Source: a virus (taxonomy: Duplodnaviria; Heunggongvirae; Uroviricota; Caudoviricetes). Taken from it: a DNA stretch of 64,000 nucleotides. Positions 44,599 to 48,142 of this stretch are shown one piece after another. Position 1 is the stretch's first letter, and every line of letters starts with the position of its first letter. The notes beneath the pieces are model-generated. The model was not told the DNA's origin. It made no database searches and worked only from the letters and a program-made list of their open reading frames with translations. Where the stretch lies: the IMG/VR virus record IMGVR_UViG_2778261574_000002; one strand, written 5' to 3'. A program made the translations under genes and the position numbers.

Positions 44599-45294
44599 TT
44601 ATTCTCGCTCAAAAAACGAGCTAATAAGGGGAAGCCAATCCTCTGACACTTCGCGAGGTCGCGGTTTGCCGTGGAAAAAGATTATTCGGCAGTCCTTTGG
44701 TAATGCCCCATTCCCCCTGGAGTAACGCGCGCTCGCATATTTTGAACCAGGTTCCACAACATCGGCCTTGTAACTTACAAACCATCCTGGATACAGATCC
44801 TGAAATGCTGGTGTATCATCGCCCATAACCTTCCGTAAGAACCCCTGATCACCCCAGCACTCAGTAGTGACACAACGAGAAATCCAACCTTCCGGATCTT
44901 GCCAGAATGAACTCCAGATATGCGCTTTTACACTATTTGGTATCCACAGGGCACCGCTACCACGATATTGTGGATGGTAAAAATCCCTAAGCATGGTGAA
45001 GCTGGTTGGTGGATTCTCAAGGATTGGGCGTATATCACCGGCAATAACTGTGTCCAAATCCAGATAGAACAGATCATCTGTTATATCCGGTCGGAACAAC
45101 TCGATTTTCGCCCACCAGCCACGGCACTTTTGCCACTGGTTGATCAATGGGACAACTTTGACGCCAGGTACATGTAAACGCTTCAGGTCTGTCAGGCAAA
45201 TAATTTCATAGCCTTTTGGCAGTTGATTAACCAGCCACTGCACATCGGAAGCGTTATAGTCACCACCAGAGCGAAAAACTAAAGCAATCTTCAT
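44599..45294 (-). CDS. hypothetical protein, possible GT-A-like sugar transferase
   Basis: 231 aa; [12 protein letters not shown] could be a DxD motif; weak evidence. Confidence 0.4.
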
Positions 45295-45968
45295 GCTGCA
45301 CCATCACCTTTCACTTTCATCAATGTCAGGTTTCCGCAAAATACGGCACCAGTGTCGATATACTGCTGATTCCAGAATGTCTTCGGGCTTTTCACCGGAG
45401 TGTGACCAAAGATAAAACGATCTGCGCCCGAAATTTCGCCACCAATATCATCCATCGAATCACTGATACGCTCGCGCGCCCAGACAACGTTGAAAAGCGG
45501 CACCTCCTTACCGAATTGGTATTCATTATCCGGATAGTCGGCATGGGCTATAACGATAGTTTCTTGCCCGGTGTTCAACTCAATGATATAGGGCAGACGC
45601 TTTACCAGCTCCACCAGCGCCCAGGCTAATATTTCCTGATCAGTGTCCAGCATGAAGAACCATTGTCCGCCATTCATTAGCCAGTTATTCACGTTGCCAT
45701 CTGGACTTAACGCATCAATCATCAGCCGCTCATGGTTCCCCATCACTGCCCTGAACCAGGGCATCTGCAATAGTTCCAGACATTCGACATTTTCAGTACC
45801 GCGATCGATAAGGTCGCCGACCGATATCAGTAAATCCTGCGCCGGGTCAAAATCCACACGATGGAGTTCGGACATCAGTCTGGTGTAGCAACCATGCAGA
45901 TCACCAACAACCCAGACATTCCTGTATTTGGTACCGTCGATACGGTGATAAATTGTGGGTGCCATCAT
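45291..45968 (-). CDS. ppp: Ser/Thr protein phosphatase Ppp (lambda-PPase family)
   Basis: GDLHG, GDLIDRG and GNHE metallophosphatase motifs; ATG at 45968 overlaps upstream stop. Confidence 0.85.
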
Positions 45969-46591
45969 GTATTCTTCAGCCATTCTTTAAGAGTCATCTG
46001 CGGAATACCTCCCATTTTCCCGCATGAAACAACGTCAATCTGTTCACGCGCAGACTGGAATAACAAAGGCAGGTGACTTAGATTTTTTGGCGTGCCGCCG
46101 GAGTGAACGCGTGGTTCTTGTGTAGCGTCAACGCCCACCAGGGCGACATGTTTGAATCCGATATGGAAAGCCAGGTTCAGAGCGCCATATGCACTATTGC
46201 CGCTGGCAATTTCATTCTCATCTTCGCAAAGTCCGAAATGTGCGGACCAGCGCCACGCCCACCACTCGGGAGAATTCGTATTTTTTGGCTCCATGCCACG
46301 TTCAGCCACACGACGGAAGCACAGAACGCCGTCTCTGACTTCACGTTCTTTAACATCGGGTAGTGCCATGCAATAACAAACACCACGGCGACGGCGGCCA
46401 CGACCAACGCGCCGCATATTGTCTGGCGATGGATCAAGTGTGAAAAAATAAGAAGCGCGGTTCAGCCAGTCGATGGCCCCATTGACCGCTATAATCGGCA
46501 CTCCGCGCGGCGCAACAAAGTTTGCGGCGCTTGGGCCACTGCCGACGATAATAACGCGATCACTGCCTCTAAATTTATTCTTGGGAAACAT
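45965..46591 (-). CDS. DUF115/MptE-like (Maf-like) protein, paralog 1
   Basis: [10 protein letters not shown] ... IIAVNGA ... D pattern typical of the DUF115 nucleotide-binding fold. Confidence 0.5.
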
Positions 46592-47151
46592 TGAATTGCA
46601 CTGCTCCTACTTGCATTCAAAATATGTAAATCTGCGTGTTTTTTGCGGGTATCCAGGAACTGCTGTTGCCATTTTGAAATAGACACCTGCGTTGGATTCC
46701 GTAGGGCTTGAGGGTGCGCGCCATGCCAATGAAGGCCGTTTTGCAGAGAACAGTCATAGCCGACTAATACAACTACTTCAGCCCCTGATTCAGCAGCCAG
46801 ACTGATAGCCTGCGCGCCGCTATTTACCCCTTCCGCCGGTCCACAATATCGCCTGTACTCCAACGAAAATGATTTCGCCGCCGCCAGGTTGGCTGTCACT
46901 TTGCGGAATTTCCCTCCCGGTATGGTGGATCCGTATTGCTTCCACCATGACAAATCACCGGCGTATAAGGCATAAATGTCATCGAACATCTGCCAGGAAT
47001 TGTTAACCGCGATGATTGAACAGCCAGTTTTTTCTATAGCAGCACAGTCCTCACGAGTGAGTGACGGACCGCTACCGACACAAAAAACAGTCCTAGTCGC
47101 CCTGGGTGGTATGTTCATTCTCAGCTGCAAATTCAGCCTCCAGGCGAGCAT
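46489..47151 (-). CDS. DUF115/MptE-like (Maf-like) protein, paralog 2
   Basis: TVFCVGSGPSL ... IIAVNNS; about 100-nt out-of-frame overlap with paralog 1; start uncertain (47151 or 47118). Confidence 0.5.
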   Translation of the reverse strand: MLAWRLNLQLRMNIPPRATRTVFCVGSGPSLTREDCAAIEKTGCSIIAVNNSWQMFDDIYALYAGDLSWWKQYGSTIPGGKFRKVTANLAAAKSFSLEYRRYCGPAEGVNSGAQAISLAAESGAEVVVLVGYDCSLQNGLHWHGAHPQALRNPTQVSISKWQQQFLDTRKKHADLHILNASRSSAIQCFPRINLEAVIALLSSAVAQAPQTLLRRAECRL

Positions 47152-47315
47152 TCATTTCAGCGATTACCGGGTCCACTACAGCATCTGCTTCCTGTTCATT
47201 ACGCGGCATGATCGATGCCAGCGATTCATAATTAGCCTTGGATGACACGATTATTCTCCCGATGTTAATGTGCGCTGTATCAAAGATACACATATGCACT
47301 AATTAATTTATTATT

Positions 47316-47894
47316 TCACGTAGCGTACAACCACTTGTCACCGTTCAATACATGCTCAATAGCCTCACCCTTTTTAAGGCTCATGTATTCCAGGATGGCG
47401 GTTATCGCTTGTTCTGCACCATACGCAAGAACGACGTAGTAACCTTCCTCTCTAAGCCTGCGCATCCAGGCGATCTGCTCTTTCGTCGGGGCTTTACCAT
47501 TTGGTTCTTTAAGCTCAATTCGCATGCCGTGATAAATACCGCATGCTTTATCGAGACTCATGTCCGGATAACCTTTTTTCTGCCCTTCAGCCTTCATTTT
47601 CCCGGCGGTTGCTTTTGAACGTTTCCCTCCGTTAGGCGTTGCATGCAACAGCTCATAGATGTCAGGGTGCTTGCGTTCGAAGTAATCAAAAATGAAAACC
47701 TGCTCGAAGTGCTCGCAATTTCCGTCGCGCAGGTCTGGGTTCTTTGCCAGTGCTGCAAGTGCCTTCGCATGTGGAGAAACTTCTTTTACCGGCGCAAGCG
47801 ATAAGAATGGATCCTTTTTGGTTTTTGGCCTGGACTGCCCCTTATTTCTACGCTCACTAAAAGCCTGAAACTCTTCCTCAGTAAAGCGCAACAT
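47316..47894 (-). CDS. VRR-NUC domain nuclease
   Basis: GYPDMSL ... YHGMRIELKE matches the VRR-NUC PD-(D/E)xK core. Confidence 0.6.
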   Translation of the reverse strand: MLRFTEEEFQAFSERRNKGQSRPKTKKDPFLSLAPVKEVSPHAKALAALAKNPDLRDGNCEHFEQVFIFDYFERKHPDIYELLHATPNGGKRSKATAGKMKAEGQKKGYPDMSLDKACGIYHGMRIELKEPNGKAPTKEQIAWMRRLREEGYYVVLAYGAEQAITAILEYMSLKKGEAIEHVLNGDKWLYAT

Positions 47895-47896
47895 AA

Positions 47897-48142
47897 TCAG
47901 TCAAATCCTGCCGGTCGCATGCCATATTTACGCTGTTTTGCTGCCTGCTCTTCCCTGTGCCATTGCGCACACTCAGCGTCACAATAGATGCCTGATTCAA
48001 TCGGTTCATTGCAGTAACGACACTTACCTGTAAATACCTGACTCACGACCTGTGCCTGCTTTCTGATGTTATCGATGGCCATGTCTTTGAGAGCTTCTAA
48101 CTGATTCATGCTCAGCTCTGCATCATCAACACGCTCTGCCAA
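47897..48142 (-). CDS. TraR/DksA-type C4 zinc-finger protein
   Basis: 81 aa with CRYC ... CDAEC four-Cys finger. Confidence 0.6.
   Translation of the reverse strand: MAERVDDAELSMNQLEALKDMAIDNIRKQAQVVSQVFTGKCRYCNEPIESGIYCDAECAQWHREEQAAKQRKYGMRPAGFD

What the first reader, a model, noticed from the sequence alone, without database searches (positions are those of the whole stretch)
44599..48142. Early operon combining TraR zinc finger, VRR-NUC nuclease, two overlapping DUF115-like paralogs, Ppp phosphatase and a possible GT-A-like protein
Seven tightly packed minus-strand genes with ATGA-type overlaps. The two DUF115/Maf-like proteins (GSGPS-type nucleotide-binding motif) overlap each other out of frame by about 100 nt, which is unusual and may reflect duplication or a recoding event. 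DUF115 proteins elsewhere act in sugar or nucleotide transfer, so this may be a modification pathway. An operator-like site (48200-48216) lies in the divergent promoter region.
Basis: partly seen in the sequence, partly recalled or inferred. Interest (0 to 1): 0.55.

Follow-up and report, generated by a model that had tools for sequence, protein, structure and literature searches.

The report
Phage P1 pmgL–pmgQ operon glycosylation genes
This is the already annotated pmgL–pmgQ operon of phage P1; three of its non-essential genes of untested function (pmgO, pmgP, pmgQ) prove to be a sugar-transferring gene trio shared by many unrelated phages, whose target is unknown.

Summary
The window is a P1-type phage (99.6% identical to Punavirus P1). 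Region 44599-48142 is the annotated minus-strand operon pmgL-pmgM-pmgN-pmgO-pmgP-ppp-pmgQ. The "operator-like site" at 48200-48216 is the known C1 operator Op82/O26.

Family calls mostly hold:
- PmgM is a VRR-NUC nuclease.
- Ppp is a lambda-type phosphatase.
- PmgO and PmgP are ancient paralogs with the DUF115/Maf/sialyltransferase fold.
- PmgQ is GT8-like, with a DxD motif and a conserved His.
- PmgL is only loosely DksA/TraR-like.

The 103-nt out-of-frame pmgO/pmgP overlap is real and is annotated the same way in P1. It is not a sequencing error: about 20 diverged loci show overlaps of 4 to about 130 nt. I found no frameshift-stimulating RNA structure. It is best read as translational coupling of two partner subunits.

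New here: O, P and Q form one module. They co-occur from Proteobacteria to Bacteroidota, and natural O-P, P-Q and Q-P fusions exist. The module sits directly after the major capsid gene in HK97-like prophages, or after lysis genes. Four P1-like relatives encode a CMP-Kdo synthetase (kdsB) about 2-3.5 kb downstream.

Best reading: a glycosylation module expressed during lytic growth that uses CMP-Kdo-type and UDP-hexose donors. The acceptor is unresolved (virion protein or LPS). The genes themselves are known; the module reading appears unpublished and is testable.

The parts
47897..48142 (-). pmgL: 81-aa Cys4 zinc-finger protein. First gene of the operon; not part of the glycosylation triad.
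   Evidence: ORF. P1 annotation. PHROG 54 'DksA-like zinc-finger protein', E 1.7e-13. No Pfam zf-dskA_traR hit. No PDB relative.
47316..47894 (-). pmgM: VRR-NUC (PD-(D/E)xK) nuclease, probably a junction resolvase.
   Evidence: PDB 4QBL 'VRR-NUC', E 8e-17. PHROG 5702 'Holliday junction resolvase', E 6e-27. Pfam VRR_NUC 21.2 bits, just below the gathering score of 23.8. The motif GYPD...IELK is visible in the translation.
47293..47309 (+). C1 operator Oppp/Op83, in the pmgM-pmgN spacer.
   Evidence: P1 annotation mapped onto the window. Sequence read: 13 of 17 matches to the consensus, so it falls below the 3-mismatch scan.
47093..47248 (-). pmgN: 51-aa protein of unknown function, with a GTG start after a GGGAG ribosome-binding site. 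It overlaps the pmgO start by 59 nt.
   Evidence: PHROG 2350, function unknown.
46489..47151 (-). pmgO: 220-aa protein with the DUF115/Maf/sialyltransferase fold. Putative transferase of a CMP-activated ulosonic acid, subunit 1.
46489..46591 (-). 103-nt dual-coding overlap of pmgO (last 34 codons) and pmgP (first 34 codons, in the -1 frame).
   Evidence: Overlaps conserved in other loci. Nucleotide identity among P1-like relatives is 0.77 here against 0.68 elsewhere in the two genes. No unusual RNA structure.
45965..46591 (-). pmgP: 208-aa paralog of PmgO with the same fold. Putative transferase, subunit 2.
45291..45983 (-). ppp: lambda-type Ser/Thr protein phosphatase. It sits between pmgP and pmgQ only in the P1/P7/SJ46 clade.
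   Evidence: Pfam Metallophos 59.3 bits. NCBIfam PRK11439, E 3e-81. Absent between P and Q in all non-P1 loci and in diverged P1-like loci.
44599..45294 (-). pmgQ: 231-aa GT8-like (GT-A fold) glycosyltransferase.
   Evidence: Family profile against PDB: 6MW5 Skp1 alpha-galactosyltransferase E 1.1e-7; glycogenin about 3e-3. Invariant residues D79 x D81, G148 D149, S174 K176, H208 G209, P213. PHROG 1962 'glycosyltransferase'. No Pfam hit for the P1 protein itself.
44526..44591 (-). End of the operon. A terminator-like hairpin (inner stem-loop 44539-44566, followed by a U tract) is enclosed by the inverted C1 operators Op86a (44575-44591) and Op86b (44526-44542).
   Evidence: RNA fold -26.9 kcal/mol, z -8.9. 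Operators. Identical to P1.
48200..48216 (+). C1 operator O26/Op82, in the divergent pmgL / gene 26 control region.
   Evidence: Consensus match with 2 mismatches. P1 annotation. Identical to the P1 site.
48179..48249 (-). Promoter region of the operon as annotated in P1: predicted sigma-70 promoters P1pmgL and P2pmgL overlapping Op82, and the late promoter LPpmgL, which shares its -22 element with the divergent LP26.
   Evidence: Coordinates transferred from AF234172. The region is 97% identical to P1, with one substitution in the annotated LPpmgL -10 region. Not tested independently; my sigma-70 consensus scan did not call these promoters.

Best explanation
The region is the phage P1 pmgL-pmgQ operon. 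It is repressed by C1 at Op82 and Op83. It is transcribed after derepression and again from a late promoter, and it ends at a hairpin flanked by Op86a and Op86b.

Inside it, pmgO, pmgP and pmgQ form one conserved three-enzyme glycosylation module.
- PmgO and PmgP are ancient paralogs with the sialyltransferase/Maf (DUF115) fold.
- Their genes overlap, so they are probably translationally coupled.
- They probably act as a pair, each adding a CMP-activated ulosonic acid. The most likely donor is CMP-Kdo, the only such sugar that all their LPS-bearing hosts make.
- PmgQ is a GT8-type, metal-dependent retaining hexosyltransferase that uses a UDP-hexose.

Together they would build a short glycan during late lytic growth from host LPS precursors. 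The acceptor is not established. I favour a phage virion protein over LPS core.

pmgL (zinc finger), pmgM (VRR-NUC nuclease), pmgN and ppp (phosphatase) are co-transcribed passengers, not pathway members.

Shown: gene structure, folds, paralogy, co-occurrence, fusions and genomic positions. Inferred: enzymatic activity, donor sugars, heterodimer formation and the acceptor.
For: Identity and regulation.

Folds:
- The CMP-binding motifs GxGPS and SG...GxD align with those of Cst-II.
- PmgO and PmgP are paralogs.
- The PmgQ family profile hits GT8 structures at E 1e-7, with an invariant DxD and His.

O, P and Q behave as one module:
- They co-occur and are mostly adjacent in Pseudomonas, Ochrobactrum, Zhongshania, Microbulbifer, Brevundimonas, Methylophilaceae, Sinomicrobium and Longimicrobiales loci, and in many IMG/VR phage contigs. 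ppp, pmgL and pmgM do not travel with them.
- Natural fusions exist: O-P (P0051), P-Q (P0221, P0286), Q-P (P0307) and Q-P-methyltransferase (P0270).
- The O-to-P junction overlaps in about 20 loci.

Donor:
- A bona fide kdsB (TIGR00466, 270 bits against a cutoff of 155) lies about 2-3.5 kb downstream, on the same strand, in four diverged P1-like phages.
- Every host lineage found is an LPS-bearing diderm.
- PmgP and the O-P fusion give faint hits to WaaZ Kdo-III transferase models.

Late or structural context:
- The module lies directly after the major capsid gene and before head-closure genes in HK97-like prophages.
- It lies after the lysis cassette in a lambdoid prophage and a podovirus-like contig.
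- In P1 it lies next to pmgR, a head-completion gene (PMC9024508).

Protein as acceptor:
- In chromosomal loci the three genes are interleaved with Big_1/invasin-type proteins.
- The closest structural neighbour, Maf, is described in the literature as a flagellin glycosyltransferase (own knowledge; the PDB title says only 'MAf glycosyltransferase').
- Virion glycosylation by phage enzymes has a precedent in mycobacteriophages (Freeman 2023, cited in PMC11256854).
Against: - No biochemical data exist for any of the three proteins.
- Single-gene knock-outs and CRISPRi knock-downs of pmgO, pmgP and pmgQ show no plaque defect (PMC10695390, which cites Gonzales 2022 for the knock-outs). Gonzales 2022 reports that 24 of 29 knock-outs showed no plaquing or antirestriction change (PMC9024508).
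- PmgO, PmgP and PmgQ were not detected in the virion proteome (PMC9024508). That is expected for enzymes.
- The 3.2-3.5 Å cryo-EM study of P1 does not mention glycans.
- Pfam PF01973 and PF01501 scores for the P1 proteins are below the gathering thresholds.
- The link to WaaZ is weak (hhalign probability 18%).
- P1 itself lacks kdsB.
- PmgP is 55-61% identical between phages whose capsid proteins are barely related or of different families. That fits a conserved glycan or lipid acceptor at least as well as a protein acceptor.
Confidence: 0.55

Rival explanations
1. The module modifies the host envelope rather than the virion. PmgO and PmgP act like WaaZ and add extra Kdo to the LPS inner core, and PmgQ adds a hexose. 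Newly made LPS would lose or mask the P1 receptor (the terminal core glucose). That would limit superinfection or the loss of progeny on cell debris.
For: - All three enzyme families have their best-known bacterial relatives in LPS core synthesis (GT8 WaaO/WaaJ types; WaaZ). This rests on own knowledge plus the faint WaaZ model hits.
- kdsB occurs in relatives.
- Every host found makes LPS.
- PmgP is highly conserved across phages of different hosts, which fits a conserved acceptor such as the Kdo-lipid A region.
- The module sits next to lysis genes in three loci.
- Overexpression of WaaZ truncates the outer core (Frirdich 2003, cited).
Against: - In HK97-like prophages the genes are embedded, with overlapping ends, between the capsid and head-closure genes. 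That is an odd place for an envelope function.
- In P1 the operon is repressed in lysogens. Late expression leaves little time to replace surface LPS.
- The chromosomal copies sit among Big_1 proteins, not in waa clusters.
- Similarity to WaaZ is weak.
Confidence: 0.22
2. The module glycosylates phage DNA, adding sugars such as Kdo to hydroxymethylated bases, as an anti-restriction hypermodification.
For: Phage glycosyltransferases that attach Kdo, heptose and other LPS sugars to 5hmC have been reported (bioRxiv 10.1101/2023.12.21.572611).
Against: - No hydroxymethylase or TET-like dioxygenase turned up beside the module in the loci whose neighbours carry Pfam annotation.
- The DNA glycosyltransferases discussed in the passages read resemble T4 beta-glucosyltransferase (GT-B fold). 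The paper contains no mention of DUF115 or sialyltransferase.
- P1 DNA behaves as ordinary, restriction-sensitive DNA in classical genetics and cloning, and P1 relies on Dar proteins for antirestriction (own knowledge).
- The 24 P1 knock-outs without a plaquing defect showed no change in antirestriction (PMC9024508).
Confidence: 0.04
3. PmgO and PmgP are not glycosyltransferases. They are MptE- or thiamine-pyrophosphokinase-like diphosphokinases, or another kind of nucleotide-dependent transferase, acting on a small molecule. PmgQ has an unrelated role.
Against: - The best structural match is the glycosyltransferase Maf, and the sialyltransferases follow.
- PmgP is repeatedly fused to a GT8-like domain and to methyltransferases.
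- PmgP travels with a further putative nucleotide-sugar transferase and with kdsB.
- No pterin or thiamine genes are nearby.
Confidence: 0.1
4. The pmgO/pmgP overlap is a programmed -1 ribosomal frameshift site that yields a PmgO-PmgP fusion protein in addition to the two separate proteins.
For: - pmgP is in the -1 frame of pmgO in nearly all loci.
- Heptamers of the X XXY YYZ type lie in the overlap: T TTC CCA at the pmgP ATG in P1-like phages, and A AAT TTA in P1.
- An AGGAG lies 12 nt upstream of the ATG.
- A natural in-frame O-P fusion exists.
Against: - The AGGAG plus ATG is an ordinary initiation site for pmgP.
- The heptamers are not conserved in position outside the CFP codons, which are constrained anyway.
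- The overlap RNA is not unusually structured (z -0.95).
- A shift at these sites would delete the conserved C-terminal helix of PmgO, which the natural fusion keeps.
- Overlap lengths vary from 4 to about 130 nt, as expected for plain coupling.
Confidence: 0.05

Closest known systems
Phage P1 pmgL-pmgQ operon as annotated in GenBank AF234172 / NC_005856 (own knowledge: the annotation of Lobocka et al. 2004)
   Same: Same genes, same order, same 103-nt pmgO/pmgP overlap, same operators Op82, Op83 and Op86a/b. 98-99.6% nucleotide identity.
   Different: This copy's pmgQ ends two codons earlier (231 against 233 aa), plus a few point differences. The published annotation calls the products 'putative morphogenetic function' only.
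Maf flagellin glycosyltransferases (DUF115; structure 5MU5) and the GT42 sialyltransferases Cst-I and Cst-II
   Different: PmgO and PmgP are minimal, about 200-aa, single-domain proteins. They lack Maf's flanking acceptor-binding domains. Sequence identity is 13-18%. They come as an obligate-looking paralog pair. Their hosts, such as E. coli K-12, lack CMP-pseudaminic and CMP-sialic acid, so a different donor (Kdo) is inferred.
WaaZ (Kdo III transferase of the E. coli K-12 LPS core; NCBIfam TIGR04437, Pfam PF27901)
   Same: The only model for a transferase that uses CMP-Kdo to give any signal. The signal comes from the N-terminal GxGPS region and the central motif.
   Different: Scores are far below the cutoffs (11.9 bits against 200; hhalign probability 18%). 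Membership is not shown.
GT8 retaining glycosyltransferases (glycogenin; the Skp1 alpha-galactosyltransferase 6MW5; LPS core WaaO/WaaJ types)
   Same: The PmgQ family profile aligns over the catalytic core, with the DxD motif and the C-terminal His-x-x-x-P motif in register.
   Different: PmgQ is shorter (about 230 aa). It is below the Pfam GT8 threshold. It has its own invariant WW-K, GDQ and SYK motifs.
Virion glycosylation systems of mycobacteriophages (Che8, Rita; Freeman et al. 2023, as cited in PMC11256854)
   Same: Phage-encoded glycosyltransferases, expressed with the structural genes, that decorate capsid proteins.
   Different: Hosts are Actinobacteria and the enzyme families are unrelated. 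Glycosylation there was shown by mass spectrometry; for P1 nothing has been shown.
Phage DNA-hypermodifying glycosyltransferases (bioRxiv 10.1101/2023.12.21.572611)
   Same: Phage enzymes that draw on LPS precursor sugars, including Kdo.
   Different: Those systems start from 5hmC made by a phage methyltransferase plus a dioxygenase. None was seen next to the O/P/Q module in the annotated loci, and P1 DNA is not known to be hypermodified.

Membership tests
DUF115 / MptE-like superfamily (Pfam PF01973; Maf, Cst, MptE) | Pfam PF01973 score above the gathering threshold (34.6 bits) | tested here: not met
   PmgO 23.6 bits (E 5e-5) and PmgP 20.9 bits (E 3e-4). Homologs of both carry precomputed PF01973 hits, and PmgP-family member P0258 scores 44.1 bits.
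DUF115 / MptE-like superfamily (Pfam PF01973; Maf, Cst, MptE) | Three-dimensional fold of the Maf / MptE / sialyltransferase core | tested here: met
DUF115 / MptE-like superfamily (Pfam PF01973; Maf, Cst, MptE) | N-terminal GxGPS motif and central SG...GxD nucleotide-binding motifs | tested here: met
   GSGPS in both proteins. Both motifs are invariant across each family. They align to the GNGPS and SG...GID motifs of Cst-II.
CMP-ulosonic acid (sialyl/Kdo-type) transferases | Transfer from a CMP-activated sugar; a catalytic base in the active site | not testable with these tools
   Conserved His residues lie downstream of GxD in both paralogs (PmgO H141, H143, H146; PmgP H173). kdsB lies nearby in four relatives. 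All of this is indirect.
WaaZ Kdo III transferase (TIGR04437 / PF27901) | Score above the curated model cutoff | tested here: not met
   PmgP scores 11.9 bits against a cutoff of 200. hhalign to K-12 WaaZ gives probability 17.8% (PmgP family) and 9% (PmgO family). Only a 'faint' PF27901 hit on the O-P fusion.
GT8 glycosyltransferases (Pfam PF01501) | Pfam PF01501 score above the gathering threshold | tested here: not met
   No hit for PmgQ. Five of 27 family members give weak hits; best E 0.026.
GT8 glycosyltransferases (Pfam PF01501) | Homology to solved GT8 enzymes across the catalytic core | tested here: met
   Family profile against PDB: 6MW5 E 1.1e-7, 5GVV 2e-3, glycogenin about 3e-3, covering profile positions 53-209.
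GT8 glycosyltransferases (Pfam PF01501) | DxD metal- and nucleotide-sugar-binding motif plus a C-terminal His | tested here: met
   D79 and D81 are invariant, L80 nearly so (motif LDLDT). H208 and G209 are invariant, in FHGxPRP. The His column aligns to a Tyr in 6MW5 (L-H-Y-S-S-N-P-K-P-W), whose own His lies one position upstream, so the C-terminal His is close but not exactly in register with GT8.
GT8 glycosyltransferases (Pfam PF01501) | GT-A fold | not tested
VRR-NUC nucleases (PmgM) | Family-level sequence match and the PD-(D/E)xK motif | tested here: met
   PDB 4QBL 'VRR-NUC', E 8e-17. YPD...IELK visible in the translation. Pfam 21.2 bits, slightly under the gathering score of 23.8.
TraR/DksA C4 zinc finger (PmgL) | Pfam zf-dskA_traR match and CxxC-x17-CxxC spacing | tested here: not met
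   No such Pfam hit appeared at E <= 1. The spacing is CxxC-x9-CxxxC. The only support is PHROG 54 'DksA-like zinc-finger protein', E 1.7e-13.
Lambda-type Ser/Thr protein phosphatase (Ppp) | Calcineurin-like metallophosphoesterase domain above threshold | tested here: met
   PF00149 59.3 bits against 21.5. PHROG 246 NinI-like, E 5e-113. NCBIfam PRK11439 272 bits, below its equivalog cutoff of 326.
P1 C1 repressor operator | 17-bp asymmetric consensus ATTGCTCTAATAAATTT | tested here: met
   48200-48216 matches with 2 mismatches. The window holds 15 sites against 0.32 expected. Identical to the annotated O26/Op82.
Programmed -1 ribosomal frameshift site | Conserved slippery heptamer plus a downstream stimulatory structure | tested here: inconclusive
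   Heptamers are present but not conserved in position. The downstream RNA is not unusually stable (z -0.95). pmgP has its own Shine-Dalgarno sequence and ATG.

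The most novel reading that the evidence does not exclude
Many tailed phages of LPS-bearing bacteria, the classic phage P1 among them, carry a conserved PmgO/PmgP/PmgQ module that takes the host LPS precursors CMP-Kdo and UDP-hexose and uses them to glycosylate virion proteins. The targets would be the capsid or other surface-exposed structural proteins. This would be a Gram-negative counterpart of mycobacteriophage virion glycosylation, and the first protein-linked Kdo glycan made by a phage. 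The overlapping, sometimes fused, pmgO and pmgP genes would encode an obligate heterodimeric transferase.
Probability: 0.25. Interest if true: 0.75.

Novelty: new member of a known kind. Interest (0 to 1): 0.45.

Why it matters
P1 is one of the most heavily used phages in genetics. Even so, pmgO, pmgP and pmgQ have carried the placeholder name "putative morphogenetic function" since the genome was annotated, and they show no knock-out phenotype on laboratory hosts.

Recognising them as one conserved glycosylation module gives three non-essential P1 genes a concrete, cheaply testable function. The module shows coupled or fused subunits, sits next to capsid genes in other phages, and is linked to a phage kdsB.

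If the acceptor is a virion protein, glycan-decorated virions would extend from mycobacteriophages to Gram-negative phages. That would bear on antibody recognition in phage therapy and on P1-based delivery vectors.

If the acceptor is LPS, this would be a receptor-editing function of the lytic cycle.

Either way, the finding warns that RefSeq names such as "alpha-2,3-sialyltransferase" and the propagated typo "norphogenetic protein" are homology labels, not established functions.

Tried and rejected
- **Sequencing error or a single fused gene at the overlap: rejected.** About 100 independent P1-type records share the sequence, and diverged relatives keep both frames open.
- **Recent tandem duplication: rejected.** PmgO and PmgP share only about 23% identity. 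BLASTP barely detects the relationship; profiles do.
- **Programmed frameshifting: examined, no support**.
- **Direct homology to K-12 WaaZ:** I fetched the gene from MG1655 and compared it. The signal is weak.
- **PmgP family profile against PDB sequences:** no hits. Fold comparison was needed.
- **The afdb50 fold library was unavailable**. The BFVD search returned only uncharacterised phage DUF115-like proteins.
- **First IMG/VR scan with the P1-centred alignment:** it returned only near-identical P1 loci. I repeated it with a non-P1 alignment.
- **Big_1-type candidate acceptor proteins in the P1 window:** none found.
- **Extra neighbouring genes:** the L088 ORFs of 103, 271 and 164 aa gave no Pfam, PHROG or NCBIfam match. 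Of the fourth module gene, L108:10254-10835 gave nothing meaningful and L003:9757-10335 gave only a weak Nucleotid_trans hit.
- **Literature searches** for pmgO/P/Q function, DUF115 in phages, and Kdo on capsids found no functional study.
- **The consensus terminator scan missed the pmgQ-pmgR hairpin**. Direct folding shows it.

Full report
**1. What the window is**

A megablast of 44400-48400 finds phage P1 and its relatives. It is 99.6% identical over the full length to Punavirus P1 MH422554 and 98.1% identical to the reference P1 genome. The reference annotation maps directly onto the window.

- pmgL (47897-48142)
- pmgM (47316-47894)
- pmgN (47093-47248, GTG start)
- pmgO (46489-47151)
- pmgP (45965-46591)
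- ppp (45291-45983)
- pmgQ (44599-45294)

**2. Regulation**

The site at 48200-48216 matches the C1 operator consensus ATTGCTCTAATAAATTT with two mismatches. The window contains 15 such sites against 0.32 expected by chance. This site is P1's O26/Op82 and is identical in sequence to the P1 site.

The P1 annotation places the following upstream of pmgL, divergent from baseplate gene 26:
- two predicted sigma-70 promoters that overlap the operator;
- a late promoter, LPpmgL.

A second operator, Op83, lies in the pmgM-pmgN spacer.

"Early operon" is therefore half right. The operon is repressor-controlled and also has an annotated late promoter. These promoters are transferred annotation, not my own test; my consensus scan does not call them.

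Downstream of pmgQ the transcript can form a very stable hairpin followed by a U tract (-26.9 kcal/mol, z -8.9). The inverted operators Op86a and Op86b form its outer stem.

**3. Gene junctions**

Only ppp/pmgQ has an ATGA overlap. The others are:
- pmgL/pmgM: 2-nt gap
- pmgM/pmgN: 67-nt spacer
- pmgN/pmgO: 59-nt overlap
- pmgO/pmgP: 103-nt overlap
- pmgP/ppp: 19-nt overlap

**4. Family assignments**

- **PmgM** is a VRR-NUC nuclease. It matches PDB 4QBL at E 8e-17. Pfam scores it just below threshold.
- **Ppp** is a lambda-type phosphatase.
- **PmgL** belongs to a PHROG family labelled "DksA-like zinc finger". It gave no Pfam TraR/DksA hit, and its cysteine spacing is atypical.
- **PmgO and PmgP** score below the Pfam MptE-like threshold. 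Their AlphaFold2 models (pLDDT 86 and 94) nevertheless match three structures:

  Their GxGPS and SG...GxD motifs align to the CMP-binding motifs of Cst-II.
- **Paralogy.** The two families are homologous (hhalign probability 98.3%, E 2e-14, 23% identity). They are ancient paralogs, not a recent duplication.
- **PmgQ** has no Pfam hit. A profile of its family matches GT8 enzymes in the PDB: 6MW5 at E 1.1e-7 and glycogenin at about 3e-3. The invariant D79-x-D81 and H208 lie in or next to the GT8 metal-binding positions.

**5. The overlap**

pmgP starts at the only possible start codon upstream of its GSGPS motif. An AGGAG lies 12 nt before it. pmgP is in the -1 frame of pmgO.

The arrangement is conserved with variable length:
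- 70, 49 and about 109 nt in P1-like elements whose PmgO is 68%, 61% and 50% identical;
- 4 to about 130 nt in about 20 loci from unrelated phages.

In the P1 clade, PmgO has a low-confidence C-terminal tail (residues about 207-220). PmgP has a low-confidence N-terminal tail (residues 1-11). Most of the 103 nt therefore pairs an ordered segment in one frame with a disordered tail in the other. Only about 27 nt encode ordered structure in both frames. The longer P1 overlap looks like stop-codon drift from the 49-nt state.

Nucleotide identity among P1-like relatives is slightly higher in the overlap (0.77 against 0.68).

X XXY YYZ heptamers do occur there. Three points argue against frameshifting:
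- the heptamers are not positionally conserved beyond the constrained Cys-Phe-Pro codons;
- the RNA is not unusually structured (z -0.95);
- a shift would remove a conserved PmgO helix that the natural fusion retains.

I read the overlap as translational coupling of two partner subunits.

**6. PmgO, PmgP and PmgQ are one module**

*Co-occurrence.* The three genes occur together in:
- Pseudomonas and Ochrobactrum prophages;
- Zhongshania, Microbulbifer, Brevundimonas and Methylophilaceae;
- the Bacteroidota genus Sinomicrobium, and a Longimicrobiales genome;
- many IMG/VR phage contigs.

ppp sits between P and Q only in the P1/P7/SJ46 clade. pmgL, pmgM and pmgN do not travel with the trio.

*Fusions.* Natural fusions link all three:
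- O-P (P0051)
- P-Q (P0221, P0286)
- Q-P (P0307)
- Q-P-SAM methyltransferase (P0270)
- methyltransferase-P (P0305)

*A fourth gene.* Some phages add a fourth small gene with a weak nucleotide-sugar transferase signal.

*Family size.* The PmgP family has 574 representatives at 50% identity clustering.

**7. Donor**

Four diverged P1-like phages (L088, L116, L123, L134) carry kdsB, the CMP-Kdo synthetase, about 2-3.5 kb downstream on the same strand. It scores 270 bits on TIGR00466 against a cutoff of 155.

Every host lineage found is an LPS-bearing diderm. E. coli K-12 makes no CMP-activated ulosonic acid other than CMP-Kdo (own knowledge).

Weak hits to WaaZ Kdo-III transferase models point the same way but fail the membership test.

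I therefore infer CMP-Kdo, or in some hosts another CMP-ulosonic acid, as the donor for PmgO and PmgP, and a UDP-hexose for the GT8-like PmgQ.

**8. Acceptor**

Context gives two leads towards a protein.
- In HK97-like prophages the module lies immediately after the major capsid gene and before the head-closure genes, with overlapping gene ends (L108, L109, L110, L111, L114, L119, L122, L124). In P1 its neighbour pmgR acts in head completion (PMC9024508).
- In Pseudescherichia and Serratia chromosomes the three genes are interleaved with Big_1/invasin-type proteins.

The best structural neighbour, Maf, is known from the literature as a flagellin glycosyltransferase (own knowledge). Virion glycosylation by phage enzymes has a precedent in mycobacteriophages (PMC11256854, citing Freeman 2023).

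Points against a protein acceptor:
- in a lambdoid prophage and a podovirus-like contig the module follows the lysis cassette instead;
- PmgP is 55-61% identical between phages whose capsid proteins are barely related or of different families, which suits a conserved glycan or lipid acceptor;
- the relatives of these enzyme families that are best known work on LPS core;
- the P1 cryo-EM paper does not mention glycans;
- no Big_1-like protein is encoded in the window.

I therefore give the LPS-editing model about 0.2.

DNA glycosylation has a precedent with Kdo (bioRxiv 10.1101/2023.12.21.572611). It needs hydroxymethylated bases and other enzyme types, and it does not fit what is known of P1 DNA. 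A pyrophosphokinase function is allowed by the fold but not by the company these genes keep.

**9. What is known experimentally**

The essentiality table in PMC10695390 lists pmgL, pmgM, pmgO, pmgP, ppp and pmgQ as non-essential, both by CRISPRi and by the knock-outs of Gonzales et al. 2022. pmgN scored as essential by CRISPRi but non-essential by knock-out.

Gonzales et al. report that 24 of 29 single-gene knock-outs had no plaquing defect and no change in antirestriction. [quoted passage not shown]

No paper in the searchable library assigns a function to pmgO, pmgP or pmgQ.

**10. Verdict**

The sequence features are genuine and already annotated. The pathway consists of three of the seven genes, not all of them.

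The added value here is evidence for a conserved PmgO/PmgP/PmgQ glycosylation module that is translationally coupled and sometimes fused. It is expressed with late genes and is linked to CMP-Kdo supply. I did not find this described.

It is a new member of a known kind, namely phage-encoded glycosylation systems. Interest is moderate, and the model is readily testable in P1.

Noticed in passing
window 44526-44591: Between pmgQ and pmgR, the two C1 operators Op86a and Op86b are inverted repeats. They form the outer stem of a very stable RNA/DNA hairpin whose inner stem-loop plus U tract looks like an intrinsic terminator (-26.9 kcal/mol, z -8.9). The terminator and the operators share the same bases. 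The P1 record lists no terminator here, and the consensus terminator scan missed it.
   Followed up: partly
window, 15 sites (for example 11091, 26788, 26871, 42434, 58867, 58878, 62400): There are 15 matches to the C1 operator consensus (3 mismatches or fewer) against 0.32 expected. They include an overlapping, opposed pair at 58867-58894. This is the dispersed C1 regulon of P1.
   Followed up: no
L088:10658-11425; also L116, L123 and L134 (about 9.2-10.4 kb in each locus): Diverged P1-like phages that lack ppp encode a bona fide CMP-Kdo synthetase (kdsB; TIGR00466, 270 bits). It lies downstream of their pmgS homolog, on the same strand as the pmgO/P/Q module. P1 itself has no kdsB.
   Followed up: partly
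L107:1236-17532 (Pseudescherichia) and L004:2513-15785 (Serratia plymuthica): These are chromosomal, non-phage-looking loci. PmgO-, PmgP- and PmgQ-like genes are interleaved with several Big_1/invasin-type proteins. Some of these lack an obvious signal peptide. In Serratia a lipase and a lipoxygenase are also present. The Big_1 proteins may be targets of the transferases.
   Followed up: partly
P0270, P0305, P0338, P0345 (PmgP-family representatives): PmgP-like domains are fused to SAM-dependent methyltransferase domains: P0270 at the C terminus and P0305 at the N terminus. In P0338 and P0345 the fusion partner is a further domain of about 200 aa that matched no model but carries GSSG...G.P.D motifs reminiscent of the same fold. 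This hints at methylated sugars and a third paralog type.
   Followed up: partly
L003:9757-10335 and L108:10254-10835: A fourth small gene (about 192 aa; 30% identity between the two phages) directly follows the module. It has a weak Pfam Nucleotid_trans signal (E 0.005) and may be an additional glycosyltransferase. It is absent from P1.
   Followed up: partly
window 47093-47248 (pmgN): pmgN scored as essential in the CRISPRi screen (plating efficiency 1.4e-2) but non-essential as a deletion (table in PMC10695390). This may be a polar or off-target effect. The 51-aa product has no recognisable family.
   Followed up: no
database names of PmgO/PmgP homologs: The typo 'norphogenetic', from the P1 GenBank note for pmgM, has spread as the product name 'norphogenetic protein' to hundreds of PmgO/PmgP homologs in NCBI and UniRef. 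RefSeq also names PmgO 'alpha-2,3-sialyltransferase'. Neither name reflects a tested function.
   Followed up: no
window 44599-44605 compared with P1 reference pmgQ: pmgQ in this window ends two codons earlier than in the P1 reference (231 against 233 aa). The C-terminal tail is not conserved in the family.
   Followed up: no
L116:5472-6004: In this P1-like IMG/VR contig the pmgO homolog is split over two reading frames. It is either a pseudogene or an assembly error, whereas pmgP and pmgQ are intact.
   Followed up: no
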